From an uncultured Chloroflexia bacterium (GTDB lineage: Bacteria > Chloroflexota > Limnocylindria > Limnocylindrales > CSP1-4), in the NCBI GenBank assembly GCA_963719285.1, contig CAVRBO010000004.1, forward strand, positions 324,898 through 388,897: DNA of 64,000 nucleotides, written 5' to 3'. Positions 18,971 to 53,905 of this stretch are shown here, piece after piece; positions within the stretch are counted from its first letter, which is position 1, and the number at the start of each line of letters is the position of its first letter. The position numbers were made by a program, and so were the translations under genes. The notes beneath the pieces are model-generated. The model was not told the DNA's origin and searched no databases. It was given only the letters and a program-made list of their open reading frames with translations.

Positions 18971-18989
18971 GCTCCGAGTGGCTCGGAGC
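18971..18989 (+). terminator. hairpin gctccgag-tgg-ctcggagc downstream of the enoyl-CoA hydratase gene (no T tract)
   Basis: 8-bp perfect inverted repeat seen in sequence. High-GC organisms often lack U-tracts. Confidence 0.25.
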
Positions 18990-19238
18990 GCGGTCCACGC
19001 ACGACCCACCCTCGTGGCGGAACCAATCCGATGGGACCAAGGTACCGCCCCGACTGGTCCCCTCGTCCGATGGAGTGGTGCGCATCTGGTCCGTTTAGAT
19101 GAGGCCCATCAGCTGGATGGGCTACCGAGACCGGGTATCGCGAGACCTCAGACCCGTCGGACGCCCCTGCAGACCCGCGCCAACACCGCCCGGCAGTCGC
19201 CGGACGGCCCGTTTCAGCCAGACAAAGGGGTTTCTGTC

Positions 19239-19823
19239 ATGCCTGAGATCGCCACCACGGACCCCGACCGGAACCGCCGCCGGCGGCGCCGGGGCCTCAT
19301 CGTCCTCATCCTCGCCCTGTCCGTGGCCAGCCTGGGGGCCGGTGCCTTCTCGCTCGCTATCTTCACGGACTCCGATGCCTCGACCGGCACGTTCACCGCC
19401 GGCACGATCGACATCGCGACGAATCCGACCACGCTGTTCACGGTCGCCGCGCTCATGCCCGGCGACTCCGGCAGCGCGACCCTCACCGTCAACAACAACG
19501 GCACGGGCCAGCTCCGCTACGCGATGACAAGCGCCTCGACGAACGCGGACACGAAGTCCCTGCGCGACCAACTCCAGCTGACCGTCCGTCCGGGCGCGTG
19601 CCCGAGCGCGGCGGCGACGATCTACAACGGCGCACTCAGCGGAGCGGCCTTCGGCAGCACCGCACAGGGCGCGCAGGCTGGCGACCGGACCCTGAACGCG
19701 GCCTCCAGCGAACAGCTCTGCTTCGGCTGGTCGTTCGCCCTCGCGAGCGGCAACGGCTATCAGGGCGCGACCACGACGACCACGTTCACCTTCACCGCGG
19801 AGCAGACCTCGAACAACCCGTAA
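19239..19823 (+). CDS. TasA/camelysin-like secreted protein with SipW-cognate class signal peptide
   Basis: N-terminus ...RRRRRGLIVLILALSVASLGAGAFSLAIFTDSDASTGTFTAGTIDI carries the A-x-F-T/S-D...F-x-x-G-T-(I/L)-D-(I/L) signature of TasA/SipW-cognate proteins. RBS AAAGGGG upstream of ATG 19239. Confidence 0.7.
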   Translation: MPEIATTDPDRNRRRRRRGLIVLILALSVASLGAGAFSLAIFTDSDASTGTFTAGTIDIATNPTTLFTVAALMPGDSGSATLTVNNNGTGQLRYAMTSASTNADTKSLRDQLQLTVRPGACPSAAATIYNGALSGAAFGSTAQGAQAGDRTLNAASSEQLCFGWSFALASGNGYQGATTTTTFTFTAEQTSNNP

Positions 19824-19937
19824 CCCTCCGGCTGCGCTCGTTCGCCGCGGCTCGCCTGGATCACCTCATCCGGCTGAGTCGCGGCTGACGGGTCGCCAGC
19901 CCGGTGTGGGCCTTCTCCCCCAGAGAGGCAGGCACCC

Positions 19938-50959: not shown

Positions 50960-50967
50960 GCGATCTT

Positions 50968-51052
50968 GGCTCCATTCGATGACCCGGCTGACTCAGTGAG
51001 TCCCGTGGCTTTGCGGCCCCGTCTCGCGGCGGGTGTGCCATTTCGTGGTCCC
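50968..51052 (-). ncRNA. second candidate c-di-GMP-I (GEMM) riboswitch, in the 5' leader of paralog D
   Basis: Minus-strand RNA: CACGAAAUGGCACACCCGCC-GCGA-GACGGGGCCGCAAAGCCACGGGACUCACUGAGUCAGCCGGGUCAUCGAAUGG, followed by AGCCAAGAUCGC-AUG. The aptamer core is ~90% identical to the paralog C copy. Differences are concentrated in the 3' segment adjoining the RBS. Confidence 0.45.
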
Positions 51053-51769
51053 GAGATCGGCGCGTCGCCGGTGCCAGGCTCGACGCTCGCGGGGGACGAT
51101 CTGACCGCCGCCCGCCGTTTCGGCGGACCGGTGGCGACCGGACCCGTGTCCGTGAGTCATCGCTACCTGAACCATGGCTCGCGGCGGCGCGGCAGGGCAT
51201 CGAACGGAGGTCGCCGCGCGGGCGGCCCGTGGTCCACGAAGCGCCTAAGCCAAACAGACGACACGCGTCGTCAGCCGTGGTCGGCGGAGGTGGTGGCGGA
51301 GTATTCGGCGACTGGTCCGGCCGGTGCCGAGACGACCGTCTTCCGGAACCCGGACCGGCGGGACGCATCGGCGGTGTCGCCCGGGGCGGCCCGTCCGCGG
51401 TCAACCTAGCAACGCCGACTTACCATCCGCTTACCTGAGCCGATGACGCTTCCGGCGCCCGATCCGCCGATGGGGTCCACCATGGAGCGGTCGTTCCACC
51501 AAGCGGGAAGCATCGCCACGGTCGACATCCGATCGCCACCGAGCGACGGATCCAGCCATACCCGCTCGGTGCAAGCGCGCACCGTCGAGCGCTCCTGGGA
51601 CTAGCCACGGTGGTACTTCCGGGCTATCGTTGGAACCCCCGGTGAGGTTGGTTCAGCGGGGGCATTCATCAGGGCCATGGCGCCGTACCAGAAACGCCGC
51701 GGCTCACACAACGAACGGCGTCTTTCTCTTTTCATCCTGCGCGCCGTCCGTGCTCAATCGGGGGAAACC

Positions 51770-53905
51770 GTGTCTGACCGCCGCTCCATGAGGTTGCTGG
51801 TGTCGCCAAGCGCCGTCCTTGGCCGCACGGTCGGCACCCTGCGAACAGCCGGGCCGCCGATCTCGAGGCTCGCTCGCGCCGTGCGGGGCCGCCACCTGCT
51901 GGCCTTCGATCTCATCGGTGTCACCGTTGCCGCCTACCTCGCCGTCGCCCTTCGCTATGACGGGTTCGAGGTACCCGGGATCATCCCGGCCTACGCGCCG
52001 TTCGTCGCGCTCCTCCTGGTGGTGCGTACCCTGGCGGACATCCGGCTCGGCCTGTACGACCGGACCTGGCGCTTCGCGAGCATCCCGGACCTCGAGCGGA
52101 TCGTCGCGGCCGTCTCGCTGGGCACGCTCCTCACGCTCGTCATCCGCCAGGGCTCGGGGCTCGTCGGCGTGCCCTGGGAAGTCGACGTCCCGAACACGTT
52201 CTGGCTCGCCGAGATGATGTTCAGCCTGGCCATCATCGGCGGCATCCGGTTCGCGATCCGGGCGGCATCGGACCTGCGTCCCGACACGGTCGCCCCGGTC
52301 ATGCGCGACTCACACCGCACGCTGCTGTACGGCGCGGGCCGCACCGGCGCCCTCATCGCCCGATCGGCCCGCCGTGAGCCGCAGGCCGGTCTCGTCCCGG
52401 TCGGGTTCATGGACGACGACCCACATCTGTCCGGCCGCCTCGTCGCCGGCCTGCGGGTCTTCGGCGGCCTCGCCGAGCTCGAGCGCGCCGTCGTCGAGAC
52501 CGGCGCCCGGTCGTTGCTCATCACGATGCCGGGCGCACCCGGCGCGGCCGTCCGACGTGTCGTCGAGGCGGCCGCGACGCTCGACCTGCAGGTACGCACG
52601 GTCCCGGCACTCACCGAGCTCTTCGACGGCAGCATCGACGTCCATCGCCTGCGCCGGGTCAAGGTCGAGGACCTCCTCGGCCGGCCGATCGTCACCCAGC
52701 ATGCGGCTGCGGTCGAGGACATCATCAAGGACAAGGTCGTGCTCATCACCGGGGCGGCCGGCTCGATCGGATCCGAGCTCGCCCGGCAGGTCTTCGCGAT
52801 CGGGCCGAAGCGACTCGTCCTCGTCGACCGCGCCGAAAGCCCGCTGTACCTGATCCAGCGGGAGCTGGAAGTCCGGCGCGAGCACAATCAGGGCAGTGGT
52901 GAGCTCGACTTCCGCCTCGCCAACGTCGTGAGCCGCGGCTCGATGGAGCGCCTCATCTCGGCCGAGCGACCGCAGGTGATCTTCCACGCCGCCGCGTACA
53001 AGCACGTTCCGATGATGGAGCAGCACCCGTCCGACGCGGTCCAGGTCAATGTCGGGGGCACGCGCGTCCTGCTCGACGCGGCCGTGGCGGCCGGCGTCGA
53101 GCGGTTCGTCTTCGTGTCCACGGACAAGGCCGTCCGGCCGTCGAGCGCCATGGGTGCCAGCAAGCGGATCGCCGAGATGCTCGTGGCGGAGACCGCCCAG
53201 GCCACCGGCAGGCGCTACGTCTCGGTCCGCTTCGGCAACGTTCTCGGTTCGACCGGCAGCGTCGTGCCGATCTTCCAGGAGCAGCTCGAGAACGGCCGCC
53301 CGCTCACGATCACCGACCCGGCCATGACCCGGTTCTTCATGACGATCCCCGAAGCGGCCTGGCTCATCCTCGACGCGGCCGCGATGGGCCGCGAGGGCGG
53401 CGACCTGTTCGTGCTCGACATGGGTCGCCCGGTGAAGGTCCTCGACCTGGCCCGCGACCTCGTCCGCCTCGCCGGCCGAGATCCCGAGACGCAGCCCATC
53501 GAGATCGTCGGCCTGCGGCCCGGCGAGAAGCTCCACGAGGAGTTGTTCTACGAGGCCGAAGAGGTCGAGCACACCGTCAGCGAGAAGGTCCTCCGGGCGA
53601 TCGCCGCGCCGCCGCCCCCCGGCGTGAGGGACGCGGTCCGGCGCATCCTCACCCTGGCCAACGGCGAGGACGAGGACCGGCTGCTCGACTACCTGAAGGC
53701 CTGCGCGAGCGACCCCGAGTCGTTCGGGGCGAACACGGAGCGGCGCGACATCGGCAAGGCCGTCGGCCCGGGCCTGGCAAGCGTCAACGGCAACGGCAAC
53801 GGCAACGGCAACGGCAACGGGAGCGGTCGGAACACGCCGGTCTTCCCGACGACCGCCGGTGGGGACGGCGACGACGGCGTGATCGCTCTGAGCGAGCGCC
53901 GCTAG
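51770..53905 (+). CDS. membrane-bound CapD/WbpM/PglF-type nucleotide-sugar 4,6-dehydratase
   Basis: N-terminal 4 TM. Two Rossmann regions (TLLYGAGRTGA; VLITGAAGSIGSEL) and catalytic ...VFVSTDKAV...ASKRIAE (YxxxK-like). C-terminal (NG)6 tail. Start is uncertain: GTG 51770 has GGGGG upstream; the ORF runs from 51677. Confidence 0.75.
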   Translation: MSDRRSMRLLVSPSAVLGRTVGTLRTAGPPISRLARAVRGRHLLAFDLIGVTVAAYLAVALRYDGFEVPGIIPAYAPFVALLLVVRTLADIRLGLYDRTWRFASIPDLERIVAAVSLGTLLTLVIRQGSGLVGVPWEVDVPNTFWLAEMMFSLAIIGGIRFAIRAASDLRPDTVAPVMRDSHRTLLYGAGRTGALIARSARREPQAGLVPVGFMDDDPHLSGRLVAGLRVFGGLAELERAVVETGARSLLITMPGAPGAAVRRVVEAAATLDLQVRTVPALTELFDGSIDVHRLRRVKVEDLLGRPIVTQHAAAVEDIIKDKVVLITGAAGSIGSELARQVFAIGPKRLVLVDRAESPLYLIQRELEVRREHNQGSGELDFRLANVVSRGSMERLISAERPQVIFHAAAYKHVPMMEQHPSDAVQVNVGGTRVLLDAAVAAGVERFVFVSTDKAVRPSSAMGASKRIAEMLVAETAQATGRRYVSVRFGNVLGSTGSVVPIFQEQLENGRPLTITDPAMTRFFMTIPEAAWLILDAAAMGREGGDLFVLDMGRPVKVLDLARDLVRLAGRDPETQPIEIVGLRPGEKLHEELFYEAEEVEHTVSEKVLRAIAAPPPPGVRDAVRRILTLANGEDEDRLLDYLKACASDPESFGANTERRDIGKAVGPGLASVNGNGNGNGNGNGSGRNTPVFPTTAGGDGDDGVIALSERR
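53785..53820 (+). repeat. hexanucleotide microsatellite (CAACGG)x6 inside the CapD-like gene, encoding (NG)6
   Basis: Six perfect tandem copies seen in sequence. The unit length keeps the reading frame. Confidence 0.75.

What the first reader, a model, noticed from the sequence alone, without database searches (positions are those of the whole stretch)
18978..53905. Co-localised biofilm-matrix supercluster: amyloid-like fibre operon + exopolysaccharide/O-glycan locus + c-di-GMP-riboswitch-controlled secreted proteins
Within ~35 kb the window encodes fibre proteins with their dedicated signal peptidase, a membrane-anchored beta-helix enzyme, and a complete Wzx/Wzy_C-dependent glycan pathway with a Wzc-like kinase. 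It also encodes four paralogous secreted proteins, two with second-messenger riboswitches. This is a more complete single-locus matrix toolkit than the separated eps and tapA-sipW-tasA loci of Bacillus. Shared regulation by c-di-GMP is plausible.
Basis: inference. Interest (0 to 1): 0.55.

Follow-up and report, generated by a model that had tools for sequence, protein, structure and literature searches.

The report
Surface-glycan locus with riboswitch-gated secreted proteins
An uncultured soil Chloroflexota bacterium keeps a TasA-type fibre operon, a polysaccharide-assembly locus and four related exported proteins side by side; only two of those proteins sit behind cyclic-dinucleotide riboswitches, and these look built to shut translation off, not on, when the signal is high.

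Summary
Between 19.2 and 53.9 kb every gene is cell-surface related:
- a TasA-family protein, a SipW-type signal peptidase and a second SipW substrate;
- a Wzx/Wzy_C glycan locus with two phosphoglycosyl transferases (PGTs), three GT4 glycosyltransferases and a fused chain-length/kinase protein;
- four exported paralogues that share a 340-aa tandem beta-sandwich domain;
- two GEMM-I riboswitches.

The host is a Chloroflexota MAG (Limnocylindria-like), not an actinobacterium or Bacillus relative.

The layout recurs in relatives at 44-90% amino-acid identity, between the same core genes, and composition is uniform. It is therefore ancestral to the lineage and not a recently acquired island. Those unrelated core genes are equally syntenic, so adjacency alone does not prove a functional unit.

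Shared c-di-GMP control is not supported:
- The riboswitches gate only paralogues A and B.
- The Shine-Dalgarno (SD) sequence is the 3' strand of P1, supported by covariation, which predicts translational OFF switches.
- The fibre operon carries its own conserved palindromic DNA element instead.

The two switches differ at ligand-contacting bases. A has G20/U92. B has A20/C92, the cGAMP-type (GEMM-Ib) signature, and this is conserved across relatives.

"Amyloid-like" is outdated for TasA fibres.

Verdict: a real, ancestral locus made of known parts in a new arrangement. The matrix function is inferred, not shown.

The parts
19034..19059 (+). Conserved palindromic element GGACCAAGGTACC-N7-CTGGTC, about 180 nt upstream of the TasA-like gene; probable DNA operator or promoter element
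   Evidence: Unique in the window and present at the same place in L008, L010, L011 and L137. The arms are conserved as sequence without compensatory changes.
19239..19823 (+). TasA/camelysin-family protein (194 aa) with a SipW-type signal peptide (…AFSLAIFTDSDAS…)
   Evidence: PF12389 at 55 bits against 22.5. TIGR04088 at 18.0 against 19. The AlphaFold2 model's best PDB match is B. subtilis TasA 5OF2, E 4e-5.
19938..20654 (+). SipW-like (ER/archaeal-type) signal peptidase I
   Evidence: TIGR02228 at 76 bits against 51.85. GASMEP, THRV and GDAN motifs read in the translation.
20651..21649 (+). Second SipW substrate (332 aa; …TLAVFTDSSTAS… signal, fn3-like domain plus an unknown C-terminal domain)
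   Evidence: Translation. fn3-like match to PDB 3mpc, E 2e-4. Always follows sipW in relatives.
21668..22189 (-). 4HBT-type thioesterase
   Evidence: PF13279 and PF03061. Conserved next to the fibre module in L009-L012.
22212..23573 (-). Membrane-anchored right-handed beta-helix protein; accessory, absent at this position in relatives
   Evidence: Pfam Beta_helix at 25.8 against 25.9 (borderline) and Pect-lyase-like. N-terminal transmembrane segment and Pro-rich linker. Missing in L010, L011 and L012. 43-55% identical to beta-helix domains in L121.
23812..24970 (-). DegT/PglE/PseC-like sugar aminotransferase, interrupted by a 1-nt insertion at about 24187
   Evidence: Pfam halves fall in two frames. 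LegC/PseC-like. The insertion is located against L010 and L011.
25090..25821 (+). Small Bac_transf phosphoglycosyl transferase (initiating enzyme)
   Evidence: PF02397 at 221 bits; EPS_sugtrans C-terminal domain.
25826..26848 (-). FemAB/GNAT (Acetyltransf_6) acyl- or aminoacyl-transferase
26845..27735 (-). Second Bac_transf phosphoglycosyl transferase
   Evidence: PF02397 at 203 bits.
27645..28682 (-). ATP-grasp ligase (PylC-like N-terminal domain)
   Evidence: NF009404 at 382 bits against 316.
28719..29540 (-). TylF-type O-methyltransferase
29686..30219 (+). VanZ-like membrane protein
30319..32004 (+). Fused chain-length-determinant (Wzz, GNVR) and P-loop BY-kinase-like ATPase, without a C-terminal Tyr cluster
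   Evidence: TIGR01007 at 186 bits against 108. Walker A/A'/B present but a single Tyr in the tail.
32060..33193 (-). GT4 glycosyltransferase (third); the + strand ORF 32021-33334 is its antisense shadow
   Evidence: Out-of-frame GC pattern of the + ORF. Pfam Glyco_trans_1_4 at 109 bits on the minus-strand product.
33196..35223 (-). AsnB-type glutamine amidotransferase (EPS-associated type)
   Evidence: TIGR01536 at 482 bits against 267.
35264..36298 (+). NAD-dependent sugar epimerase (TviC/GalE-like)
36315..37697 (+). Wzx-type flippase (Polysacc_synt_3)
   Evidence: 72.7 bits against 23.
37735..42720 (-). Operon tail GT4b (41644-42720), Wzy_C (40299-41657), GT4a (39176-40306) and DUF7033/VimE-like deacetylase (37735-39171), with overlapping or abutting genes
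   Evidence: The order is conserved in L004-L007.
42811..44019 (-). Paralogue D: transmembrane anchor plus tandem beta-sandwich domain. First canonical start at 43911; the open frame with the anchor extends upstream to a probable non-canonical start near 44001-44019. No hairpin before GT4b, so probably co-transcribed with it.
   Evidence: D-type orthologues directly precede GT4b in L002, L004, L006 and L007.
44174..44205 (-). 14-bp perfect GC-rich hairpin after paralogue C (terminator-like)
44226..46175 (-). Paralogue C (649 aa): signal peptide, unknown N-terminal domain, tandem beta-sandwich domain; no riboswitch
46496..48511 (-). Paralogue B (671 aa): MTFWNGTAW leader, signal peptide, fn3, Pro/Thr linker, tandem beta-sandwich domain
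48509..48612 (-). Riboswitch B with its platform: GEMM-I aptamer at 48527-48601, A20 at 48591, C92 at 48531, P1 5' strand at 48596-48604, SD GGAG at 48522-48525, ATG at 48509-48511
48785..48812 (-). 11-bp perfect GC hairpin after paralogue A (terminator-like; region z = -3.3)
48854..50959 (-). Paralogue A (701 aa): MSSWNGTSW leader, signal peptide, fn3, Pro/Thr linker, tandem beta-sandwich domain
50957..51060 (-). Riboswitch A with its platform: GEMM-I aptamer at 50975-51049, G20 at 51039, U92 at 50979, SD GGAG at 50970-50973, ATG at 50957-50959
51677..53905 (+). CapD/PglF/WbpM-type membrane UDP-GlcNAc 4,6-dehydratase, divergent from paralogue A
   Evidence: PF02719 at 343 bits. PseB/FnlA-like.

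Best explanation
This is one contiguous cell-envelope locus of an uncultured Chloroflexota (Limnocylindria-like) bacterium. It sits at a chromosomal site conserved across the lineage and has three neighbouring parts with separate regulation.

1. Fibre operon. A tasA-like, sipW and second-substrate operon probably exports a TasA-family fibre subunit through a dedicated ER-type signal peptidase. It has its own conserved palindromic DNA element upstream.

2. Glycan locus. A Wzx/Wzy-type locus builds a decorated heteropolysaccharide. The chemistry is inferred. It would start from a 4-amino-4,6-dideoxy-HexNAc-type sugar made by the CapD/PglF-like dehydratase and the DegT aminotransferase. Acyl or aminoacyl, amide and methyl decorations would come from the FemAB/GNAT, ATP-grasp, AsnB and TylF enzymes.

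3. Paralogue array. Four exported paralogues share a 340-aa tandem beta-sandwich domain, probably glycan-binding (inferred). Paralogue D is constitutively linked to the GT4-Wzy_C-GT4-deacetylase operon. Paralogues A and B are each translated from an mRNA whose GEMM-I aptamer uses the Shine-Dalgarno GGAG as the 3' strand of P1. Ligand binding should therefore stabilise P1, hide the SD and lower translation. On this reading A and B are made when cyclic-dinucleotide levels are low. That fits accessory glycan-binding or remodelling proteins of the non-sessile or dispersal state better than c-di-GMP-induced matrix scaffolds.

What is shown: gene content, synteny, the P1-SD architecture with covariation, the folds and uniform composition.
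What is inferred: sugar chemistry, the OFF polarity, glycan binding, and any biofilm role.
For: Gene content.

Taxonomy.

Ancestral, not an island:
- GC3 and flank-referenced CAI of the fibre, glycan and paralogue genes equal those of flanking core genes.
- GC runs at 0.68-0.74 throughout.
- The same flanks occur in relatives.

Synteny:
- Whole layout on ERZ25039551 contig_59535.
- Fibre module next to 4HBT, DegT and Bac_transf in L009-L012, and next to ATP-grasp and Bac_transf in the distant L137.
- Paralogue array followed by GT4, Wzy_C, GT4 and DUF7033 in L004-L007.

Riboswitches:
- Above gathering score in the window and in L003-L007.
- The aptamer ends 5 nt before GGAG, and the ATG lies 15 nt after 'CGAA' in every family copy.
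- The helix of columns 9-15 with 87-94 is 84% paired, with compensatory changes at 4 of 7 pairs. Slid controls give 26-42% pairing.
- The same P1 geometry is general in 120 soil GEMM-I loci.
- There are no riboswitches elsewhere in the locus.

Transcription units: strong hairpins follow A and C but not B or D.

Domains:
- C-terminal domain model has pLDDT 94 and is all-beta. Its only PDB matches are weak, to phage baseplate and tail-fibre beta-sandwiches.
- The family has 1,554 cluster representatives.
- In L121 the same riboswitch, leader and fn3 region are fused to a beta-helix domain. P0406 fuses a beta-helix to this domain.

TasA: the best fold match is B. subtilis TasA.
Against: - No expression or binding data exist. 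The OFF polarity is inferred from architecture alone.
- P1 of the A-type copies is weak (duplex -2.3 to -5.8 kcal/mol).
- The covariation set is small and closely related (11 sequences), so some signal could reflect shared ancestry.
- The beta-sandwich domain has no informative structural neighbour (TM <= 0.35). Glycan binding is a guess from fold class, genomic context and the beta-helix swap.
Synteny cannot decide this.
- If the DegT frameshift is real, the inferred sugar pathway is broken in this genome.
- The kinase lacks a tyrosine cluster, so Wzc-like control of polymerisation is uncertain.
Confidence: 0.6

Rival explanations
1. First reader's model. This is an integrated biofilm-matrix toolkit. 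Fibres, exopolysaccharide and secreted matrix proteins are made together when c-di-GMP is high, and the riboswitches act as ON switches.
For: - All three module types are matrix components in model organisms (established for Bacillus TasA/eps).
- Co-localisation is conserved in relatives.
- GEMM-I ON switches controlling adhesins are known from other bacteria (my own knowledge).
Against: - Riboswitches precede only two genes.
- The SD lies inside P1, which argues for OFF.
- The fibre operon has a different conserved cis element.
- Unrelated core genes share the same synteny.
- No diguanylate cyclase or effector gene is in the window.
Confidence: 0.2
2. Surface-glycoprotein system. The Wzy_C protein acts as an O-oligosaccharyltransferase or ligase. 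The paralogues (Pro/Thr-rich linkers), and perhaps the TasA-like fibre, are the glycosylation substrates. The locus would then make glycosylated envelope or S-layer-like proteins, not a free exopolysaccharide.
For: - The Wzy_C domain family includes O-antigen ligases and PglL-type O-OTases (family knowledge). Only the domain is matched, at 39 bits against 31.7.
- A and B have long PT-rich linkers.
- Paralogue D is always immediately upstream of GT4-Wzy_C-GT4 with no terminator.
- The PglF, PglE and PglC-like enzyme trio is typical of protein-glycosylation pathways.
- The kinase lacks a Tyr cluster and there is no Wza.
Against: - A fused Wzz/GNVR chain-length determinant with a P-loop ATPase and a Wzx flippase point to polymer synthesis.
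- Only one Wzy_C gene is present, so a polymerase would be missing if it is an OTase.
- Nothing tests glycosylation directly.
Confidence: 0.2
3. Neighbours by descent only. The fibre operon, the variable glycan locus and the paralogue array are functionally independent. They happen to occupy one conserved chromosomal site, like O-antigen loci between fixed flanking genes.
For: - In L137 the fibre module sits between the same core genes but next to a different glycan gene set: a PKD/NPCBM giant protein, HAD and PMT_2.
- L002, L003 and L006 have rearranged glycan genes.
- The beta-helix gene is present only in this genome.
- The regulatory elements are separate.
Against: - A Bac_transf and an ATP-grasp gene stay close to the fibre module even in L137.
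- All 28 or so genes between the core flanks are envelope-related.
- D-type paralogues are embedded in glycan clusters in every relative.
Confidence: 0.3
4. Two-signal or two-threshold gate. Riboswitch B (A20/C92) senses 3'3'-cGAMP, or responds to c-di-GMP only at a much higher threshold. Riboswitch A (G20) senses c-di-GMP. The tandem paralogues would then answer to different signals.
For: - A20 is invariant in all seven B-type copies, and G20 in all A-type copies.
- G20A is the GEMM-Ib determinant. Vc2 G20A binds cGAMP (120 nM) and c-di-GMP (53 nM), against picomolar affinity for the wild type (PMC6140456).
- The window's A copy and L005a have U at position 92. In engineered mutants this position changes base preference (G20A/C92U binds c-di-AMP; PMC7288161).
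Against: - Natural A20 variants can be bispecific.
- 16 of 131 soil GEMM-I hits carry A20, so it is not rare.
- U92 is not conserved in the A-type (L007a has C).
- No cGAMP synthase could be looked for, because only this window is held.
- The position-20 assignment rests on my memory of the Vc2 numbering, cross-checked against the Rfam alignment.
Confidence: 0.25

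Closest known systems
Bacillus subtilis tapA-sipW-tasA operon and the separate epsA-O locus
   Same: - TasA/camelysin-family subunit (Pfam M73; best fold match 5OF2).
- Adjacent SipW-type ER-like signal peptidase.
- A second SipW-dependent protein in the operon.
- An exopolysaccharide locus in the same genome.
   Different: - Gene order is tasA-like, sipW, then the second substrate.
- The proteins are not orthologues: NF046066 scores 19.5 against 450, and NF046067 scores 69 against 190.
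- The second substrate is an fn3-containing protein unrelated to TapA.
- The fibre operon abuts the glycan locus instead of lying apart.
- The host is Chloroflexota.
- Regulation is unknown; there is a palindromic element and no SinR-type evidence.
Wzx/Wzy-dependent capsule/EPS loci with a PCP-BY-kinase (E. coli group 1 Wzc type; Gram-positive CpsC/CpsD)
   Same: Initiating Bac_transf PGT, Wzx flippase, Wzy_C-domain protein, GT4 transferases, and a Wzz/GNVR chain-length domain fused to a P-loop kinase domain (TIGR01007 above its cut-off).
   Different: - No Wza/OPX exporter.
- No cognate phosphatase found in the cluster.
- The kinase tail has one Tyr instead of a Tyr cluster.
- Two small PglC-like PGTs.
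- A PglF/PglE-like amino-sugar branch.
- Conserved tandem beta-sandwich proteins embedded in the operon.
c-di-GMP-I (GEMM-I) riboswitches such as V. cholerae Vc2, a translational/stability OFF switch
   Same: - Rfam RF01051 above gathering score.
- P2 with a GNRA loop, plus P3 and P1.
- A47 and most core nucleotides are conserved.
- OFF behaviour is reported for Vc2 (abstract of bioRxiv 10.1101/617340).
   Different: - Very compact platform: the SD is itself the 3' strand of P1 and the ATG follows 8-10 nt later.
- Two single-gene units in tandem in front of paralogous genes.
- Each copy deviates at one ligand-contacting base (A20 in B; U92 in A of this genome).
GEMM-Ib 3'3'-cGAMP riboswitches of Geobacter (Gs1761 type)
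   Same: Riboswitch B and its orthologues have A at the position equivalent to G20 and C at position 92, which is the defining substitution.
   Different: - Different phylum.
- A translational rather than transcriptional platform.
- The regulated genes are exported beta-sandwich proteins, not exoelectrogenesis genes.
- Selectivity is untested and could be bispecific.
DUF4082 (PF13313) / 'choice-of-anchor R' (NF041539) beta-sandwich domains
   Same: Weak sub-threshold matches to each half of the 340-aa unit. Both occur in secreted, surface-associated proteins.
   Different: - Scores fall below or barely reach the curated cut-offs: 22.9 against 28.4; 27-32 against 30.
- The unit here is a fixed pair of domains that matches end to end in more than 500 diverged clusters.
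- No curated model covers it, and no function is known.

Membership tests
TasA/camelysin family (Pfam PF12389 Peptidase_M73) | Match to the family model above its gathering score | tested here: met
   55 bits against 22.5. Homologues are annotated PF12389, and one is named 'TasA family protein'.
TasA/camelysin family (Pfam PF12389 Peptidase_M73) | TasA-like jelly-roll fold | tested here: met
   The AlphaFold2 model (pLDDT 80) has its best PDB hits to TasA 5OF2 and 5OF1: E 4e-5 and 1e-4, prob 1.0, TM 0.46 with the signal helix included.
TasA/camelysin family (Pfam PF12389 Peptidase_M73) | SipW-dependent signal peptide (TIGR04088) and an adjacent SipW gene | tested here: inconclusive
   The signal model scores 18.0 against a cut-off of 19. 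The AxFTDS motif is visible. The adjacent SipW gene is present.
TasA/camelysin family (Pfam PF12389 Peptidase_M73) | Orthology to B. subtilis biofilm TasA (NF046066 equivalog) | tested here: not met
   19.5 bits against 450. phmmer to 8aur gives E about 1. It is a family member, not an orthologue.
TasA/camelysin family (Pfam PF12389 Peptidase_M73) | Assembly into extracellular fibres by donor-strand exchange | not testable with these tools
   Needs purification and EM. The N-terminal segment after the signal helix is low-confidence in the model (residues 35-46). That is compatible with a donor strand but is not evidence for one.
SipW / ER-type signal peptidase I (TIGR02228) | Model above cut-off, with Ser/His catalytic boxes | tested here: met
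   76 bits against 51.85. GASMEP, THRV and GDAN read in the translation (the box assignment is from my own knowledge).
Wzx/Wzy-dependent polysaccharide pathway | Initiating polyprenyl-phosphate glycosylphosphotransferase | tested here: met
   Two Bac_transf proteins, at 221 and 203 bits.
Wzx/Wzy-dependent polysaccharide pathway | Wzx flippase | tested here: met
   Polysacc_synt_3 at 72.7 bits against 23.
Wzx/Wzy-dependent polysaccharide pathway | Wzy polymerase (as opposed to a ligase or O-OTase) | tested here: inconclusive
   Wzy_C domain at 39.1 bits against 31.7. No NCBIfam name. The domain does not separate polymerase, ligase and OTase.
Wzx/Wzy-dependent polysaccharide pathway | Outer-membrane exporter (Wza/OPX) | tested here: not met
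   No such domain appears in any cluster gene, and no unassigned gap exceeds 630 nt. It may not be needed in a monoderm envelope.
BY-kinase (Wzc/CpsD type) | P-loop kinase domain with Walker A, A' and B | tested here: met
   TIGR01007 at 186 bits against 108. The motifs PGEGKT, LLVDADLR and VLIIDSAP are read.
BY-kinase (Wzc/CpsD type) | C-terminal tyrosine-rich autophosphorylation cluster | tested here: not met
   The last roughly 55 residues contain a single Tyr.
c-di-GMP-I riboswitch (Rfam RF01051) | Covariance-model score at or above gathering | tested here: met
   53.4 and 52.6 bits against 35. Seven further copies occur in relatives.
c-di-GMP-I riboswitch (Rfam RF01051) | Canonical ligand-contacting bases G20, A47 and C92 | tested here: not met
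   Riboswitch B has A20/A47/C92 and riboswitch A has G20/A47/U92. Numbering follows Vc2 (PMC6140456) and was mapped by me onto the Rfam alignment.
c-di-GMP-I riboswitch (Rfam RF01051) | Binds c-di-GMP and regulates the downstream gene | not testable with these tools
   Needs binding and reporter assays.
GEMM-Ib cGAMP riboswitch | Adenine at position 20 with C92 retained | tested here: met
   True for riboswitch B and all six orthologous or related copies.
GEMM-Ib cGAMP riboswitch | Selectivity for 3'3'-cGAMP, and a cGAMP synthase in the genome | not testable with these tools
   No binding data. Only 64 kb of the genome is held, and it contains no GGDEF or CD-NTase gene.

The most novel reading that the evidence does not exclude
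The two tandem riboswitches may be a conserved two-input gate. The G20 copy would read c-di-GMP. The A20 copy would read 3'3'-cGAMP, or c-di-GMP only at a far higher threshold. Each would shut off translation of one member of a pair of secreted glycan-directed proteins that flank a polysaccharide-assembly operon. If so, cGAMP-type riboswitch signalling would extend to soil Chloroflexota. It would also point to a dispersal or remodelling arm of envelope-glycan control carried by an uncharacterised tandem beta-sandwich family of about 1,500 clusters.
Probability: 0.2. Interest if true: 0.75.

Novelty: new variant of a known kind. Interest (0 to 1): 0.5.

Why it matters
- Limnocylindria-like Chloroflexota are abundant, uncultured soil bacteria whose envelope and lifestyle control are essentially unknown.
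- This locus gives a concrete, testable parts list: a TasA-type fibre system outside Firmicutes and Archaea, lying next to a Wzx/Wzy glycan locus.
- It also offers a compact natural pair of GEMM-I switches. They differ at the specificity-determining base and regulate paralogous genes, which makes them a ready system for asking how one scaffold sets ligand choice or threshold.
- If the OFF polarity holds, it cautions against reading every c-di-GMP riboswitch next to EPS genes as 'matrix induction'.
- The regulated domain family is sizeable and unannotated.

Tried and rejected
1. Actinobacterial origin, my first guess from 71% GC. Rejected by the names of relatives.
2. Recent horizontal island. 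Rejected by uniform GC3 and CAI and by conserved flanks.
3. Additional or degenerate riboswitches before paralogues C and D, the fibre operon or other glycan genes. None found at E <= 1 or in relatives.
4. A 'CUCC' in the P3 loop acting as an anti-SD, which would make an ON switch. It is not conserved in win_A or L006, whereas the P1-SD pairing covaries.
5. The '437-aa unknown protein' at 32021-33334(+). It is an antisense shadow of a GT4.
6. An RNA hairpin upstream of tasA. The arms are conserved as sequence and are broken without compensation, so a DNA site is more likely.
8. Domain fusions in long family members. These were uninformative except for one beta-helix.
9. The first genome scan with a 14-sequence profile failed for lack of a conserved stretch. 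The four-paralogue profile then found only four loci, so the taxonomic breadth from representative genomes is poorly sampled.
10. The literature searches found no description of this locus, of DUF4082 function, or of c-di-GMP riboswitches in Chloroflexota.

Full report
**Observation**

The window is 71% GC throughout. I called genes by third-position GC and then used profile searches. From 19.2 to 53.9 kb every gene is envelope-related, and no unassigned gap exceeds 630 nt.

The fibre module has three genes:
- A 194-aa TasA/camelysin-family protein at 19239-19823. PF12389 scores 55 bits against a cut-off of 22.5.
- A SipW-type signal peptidase at 19938-20654. TIGR02228 scores 76 bits against 51.85. 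GASMEP, THRV and GDAN boxes are visible.
- A 332-aa protein at 20651-21649 with the same AxFTDS signal motif and an fn3-like domain.

An AlphaFold2 model of the first protein finds B. subtilis TasA (5OF2, 5OF1) as its best solved match. The NCBIfam equivalog for Bacillus TasA is far from met, so this is a family member and not an orthologue. TasA fibres are now understood as donor-strand-exchanged globular subunits (PMC9674648), so 'amyloid-like' should be dropped.

**Glycan module**

The module contains the following genes:
- a membrane CapD/PglF-type 4,6-dehydratase and a DegT/PseC-like aminotransferase;
- two small Bac_transf PGTs;
- a FemAB/GNAT transferase, an ATP-grasp ligase, a TylF methyltransferase, an AsnB-type amidotransferase and a TviC/GalE-like epimerase;
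- a Wzx flippase and a Wzy_C-domain protein;
- three GT4 transferases;
- a DUF7033/VimE-like deacetylase;
- a fused Wzz/GNVR/P-loop protein.

Three caveats apply:
- DegT is split by one extra base near 24187 relative to two intact orthologues. Relatives from the same survey show many fragmented genes, so an assembly indel is plausible.
- The kinase has Walker motifs but no tyrosine cluster.
- There is no Wza-type exporter.

The + strand ORF at 32021-33334 is an antisense artefact of the third GT4. The membrane-anchored beta-helix protein at 22212-23573 is real, but relatives lack it at this position.

**Paralogues and riboswitches**

Four minus-strand genes share a 340-aa C-terminal unit at 50-61% identity.
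- A and B also share a leader peptide, a signal sequence, an fn3 domain and a Pro/Thr linker.
- C has a different N-terminal domain.
- D has only a membrane anchor, which lies upstream of its first canonical start codon here and in orthologues.

The shared unit models confidently (pLDDT 94) as two beta-sandwiches. Its only solved neighbours are weak ones, phage baseplate and tail-fibre domains with TM <= 0.35. A profile search finds 1,554 cluster representatives, 580 of them at E <= 1e-30, nearly all matching end to end. No curated family covers it.

Rfam finds two c-di-GMP-I aptamers immediately upstream of A and B and nothing else, even at E <= 1.

**Organism**

Exact-protein look-up places the window on an 806-kb metagenomic contig. 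Relatives are titled 'uncultured Chloroflexia bacterium' MAGs. TasA homologues at 90% identity are labelled Candidatus Limnocylindrales (lineage).

**Synteny**

- One relative (81-86% identity) has the paralogue array and the fibre module on a single 59.5-kb contig, in the window's order.
- Loci L009-L012 keep the order ECH, TasA, SipW, substrate, 4HBT, DegT, Bac_transf … VanZ, kinase.
- L004-L007 keep riboswitch and paralogues, then GT4, Wzy_C, GT4 and DUF7033. On the far side are CapD and MBL, and in L005 and L007 the MoaE/M55/S58 genes.
- In a distant relative (44% identity, L137) the fibre module still lies between PPK2, Aldh, ACAD, CoA ligase and ECH on one side and glycan genes on the other. 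The glycan set differs there: a giant PKD/NPCBM protein, HAD, ATP-grasp, Bac_transf and PMT_2.
- GC3 and codon usage match the flanks.

So the locus is ancestral to the lineage and sits at a fixed site with variable glycan content. It is not a recently acquired island. Unrelated core genes are equally syntenic, so adjacency alone does not demonstrate a functional supercluster.

**Regulation**

All family copies end the aptamer 5 nt before a GGAG, and the ATG follows 15 nt after the conserved CGAA.

Folding pairs that GGAG with the '…CCCA' just 5' of the aptamer. On an 11-sequence alignment this helix is 84% paired, with compensatory changes at 4 of 7 pairs (for example CCA/UGG to CCU/AGG). Slid controls give 26-42% pairing. 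The same P1 geometry appears in 120 soil GEMM-I loci.

Ligand binding stabilises P1 in this riboswitch class (established for Vc2, which acts as an OFF switch; abstract). I therefore infer translational repression at high ligand.

Strong hairpins follow A and C but not B or D. This suggests the transcription units A | B(-C) | D-GT4-Wzy-GT4-deacetylase. D-type paralogues never carry a riboswitch in any genome examined.

The fibre operon instead has a conserved palindromic element at 19034-19059, present in four relatives. Its arms do not covary, so it is probably a DNA site.

No cyclic-dinucleotide enzyme is encoded in the window.

**Specificity lead**

The base equivalent to Vc2 G20 is G in all A-type copies and A in all seven B-type copies. 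G20A is the determinant of cGAMP-sensing or bispecific GEMM-Ib switches, and it lowers c-di-GMP affinity from picomolar to tens of nanomolar in Vc2 (PMC6140456).

The window's A copy and L005a have U at position 92, whereas L007a has C. Position 92 changes base preference in engineered mutants.

This is a lead and not a result. A20 occurs in 16 of 131 soil hits, and my mapping of the numbering relies partly on memory.

**Functional reading**

In L121 the same riboswitch, 'MFWNG' leader and fn3 region are fused to a beta-helix domain 43% identical to the window's beta-helix protein. A second beta-helix gene and a GT4 follow. One long family member fuses a beta-helix to the beta-sandwich unit.

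Together with the embedding of D in the GT4-Wzy operon, this points to glycan-directed proteins. I rate binding or remodelling of the locus's own polysaccharide as most likely, a glycoprotein-substrate role as a serious rival, and a c-di-GMP-induced matrix scaffold as least consistent with the platform architecture.

**Verdict**

This is a new arrangement of known parts in an unstudied lineage, with an unexplored regulated protein family and an attractive riboswitch pair.

Noticed in passing
window 48591 (A20) and 50979 (U92), minus strand; L004, L005, L006, L007, L121, L124, L128: The two tandem GEMM-I switches differ at ligand-contacting bases. B-type copies are always A20/C92, the GEMM-Ib signature. 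A-type copies are G20 with U92 (window, L005a) or C92 (L007a).
   Followed up: partly
window 48485-48511 and 50933-50959 (first 9 codons of paralogues B and A); also L004-L007, L032, L061, L121, L124, L128: Riboswitch-controlled proteins share an N-terminal peptide, M-x-[FYSL]-W-[ND]-G-x-x-W, ahead of the signal sequence. Synonymous positions vary, so selection acts on the peptide. Paralogues C and D lack it. Its role is unknown. The spacing loosely recalls the KxYKxGKxW signal-peptide motif (from memory, not tested).
   Followed up: partly
window 19034-19059 (+): A conserved palindrome GGACCAAGGTACC-N7-CTGGTC lies about 180 nt upstream of the TasA-like gene, with a second CTGGTCCGTTT about 30 nt downstream. 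It is present in four relatives, including one at 44% identity. It is a probable transcription-factor site.
   Followed up: partly
window about 24187 (minus-strand DegT): A single-base insertion splits the sugar aminotransferase into two frames. Orthologues in L010 and L011 are intact. It is either a pseudogene or a long-read assembly indel.
   Followed up: partly
window 43912-44061 (minus strand, upstream of paralogue D): The open frame continues 50 codons upstream of the first ATG/GTG/TTG and encodes a charged segment followed by a hydrophobic anchor that is conserved in orthologues. This implies a non-canonical start (ATC, CTG or ATT near 44001-44019) or an assembly error.
   Followed up: partly
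window 42791-42826 (minus strand): The last 16 nt of paralogue D, including its stop (GTTCTACTTCCGGTGA), are duplicated 4 nt downstream, in the 91-nt gap before GT4b.
   Followed up: no
L016 (Candidatus Saccharimonadia MAG, JBBRSS010000001.1) 380-11261: Five tandem genes encode the same 340-aa beta-sandwich unit (39-52% identity) in a CPR/Patescibacteria genome, with no riboswitch at gathering score.
   Followed up: partly
L121 3483-8091: An A20 riboswitch precedes a protein with the MFWNG leader and fn3 region fused to a beta-helix domain. A second beta-helix gene and a GT4 follow. The beta-helix domains are 43-55% identical to window 22212-23573.
   Followed up: partly
window 30319-32004 (+), C-terminal tail: The BY-kinase-like protein passes the NCBIfam model and has Walker A, A' and B motifs. 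Its tail holds a single tyrosine, so canonical autophosphorylation control is doubtful.
   Followed up: yes
window 32021-33334 (+) versus 32060-33193 (-): A 437-aa ORF with no family match is the antisense shadow of a GT4 gene. Its GC1 > GC3 pattern gave it away. This is a typical high-GC trap.
   Followed up: yes
window 8869-9414 (+): A stand-alone 181-aa protein consisting of a LeuA allosteric (dimerisation) domain follows a full-length leuA that has its own copy of that domain. A similar gene precedes PDT in L010.
   Followed up: no
L003 1171-1251, L006 7666-7739, L007 5202-5276: Three relatives' copies just reach the gathering score of the variant model RF03167 (c-di-GMP-I-GGC; 59-60 bits against 59), although they carry A at position 47. 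The two Rfam models evidently overlap for these short-P3 aptamers.
   Followed up: no
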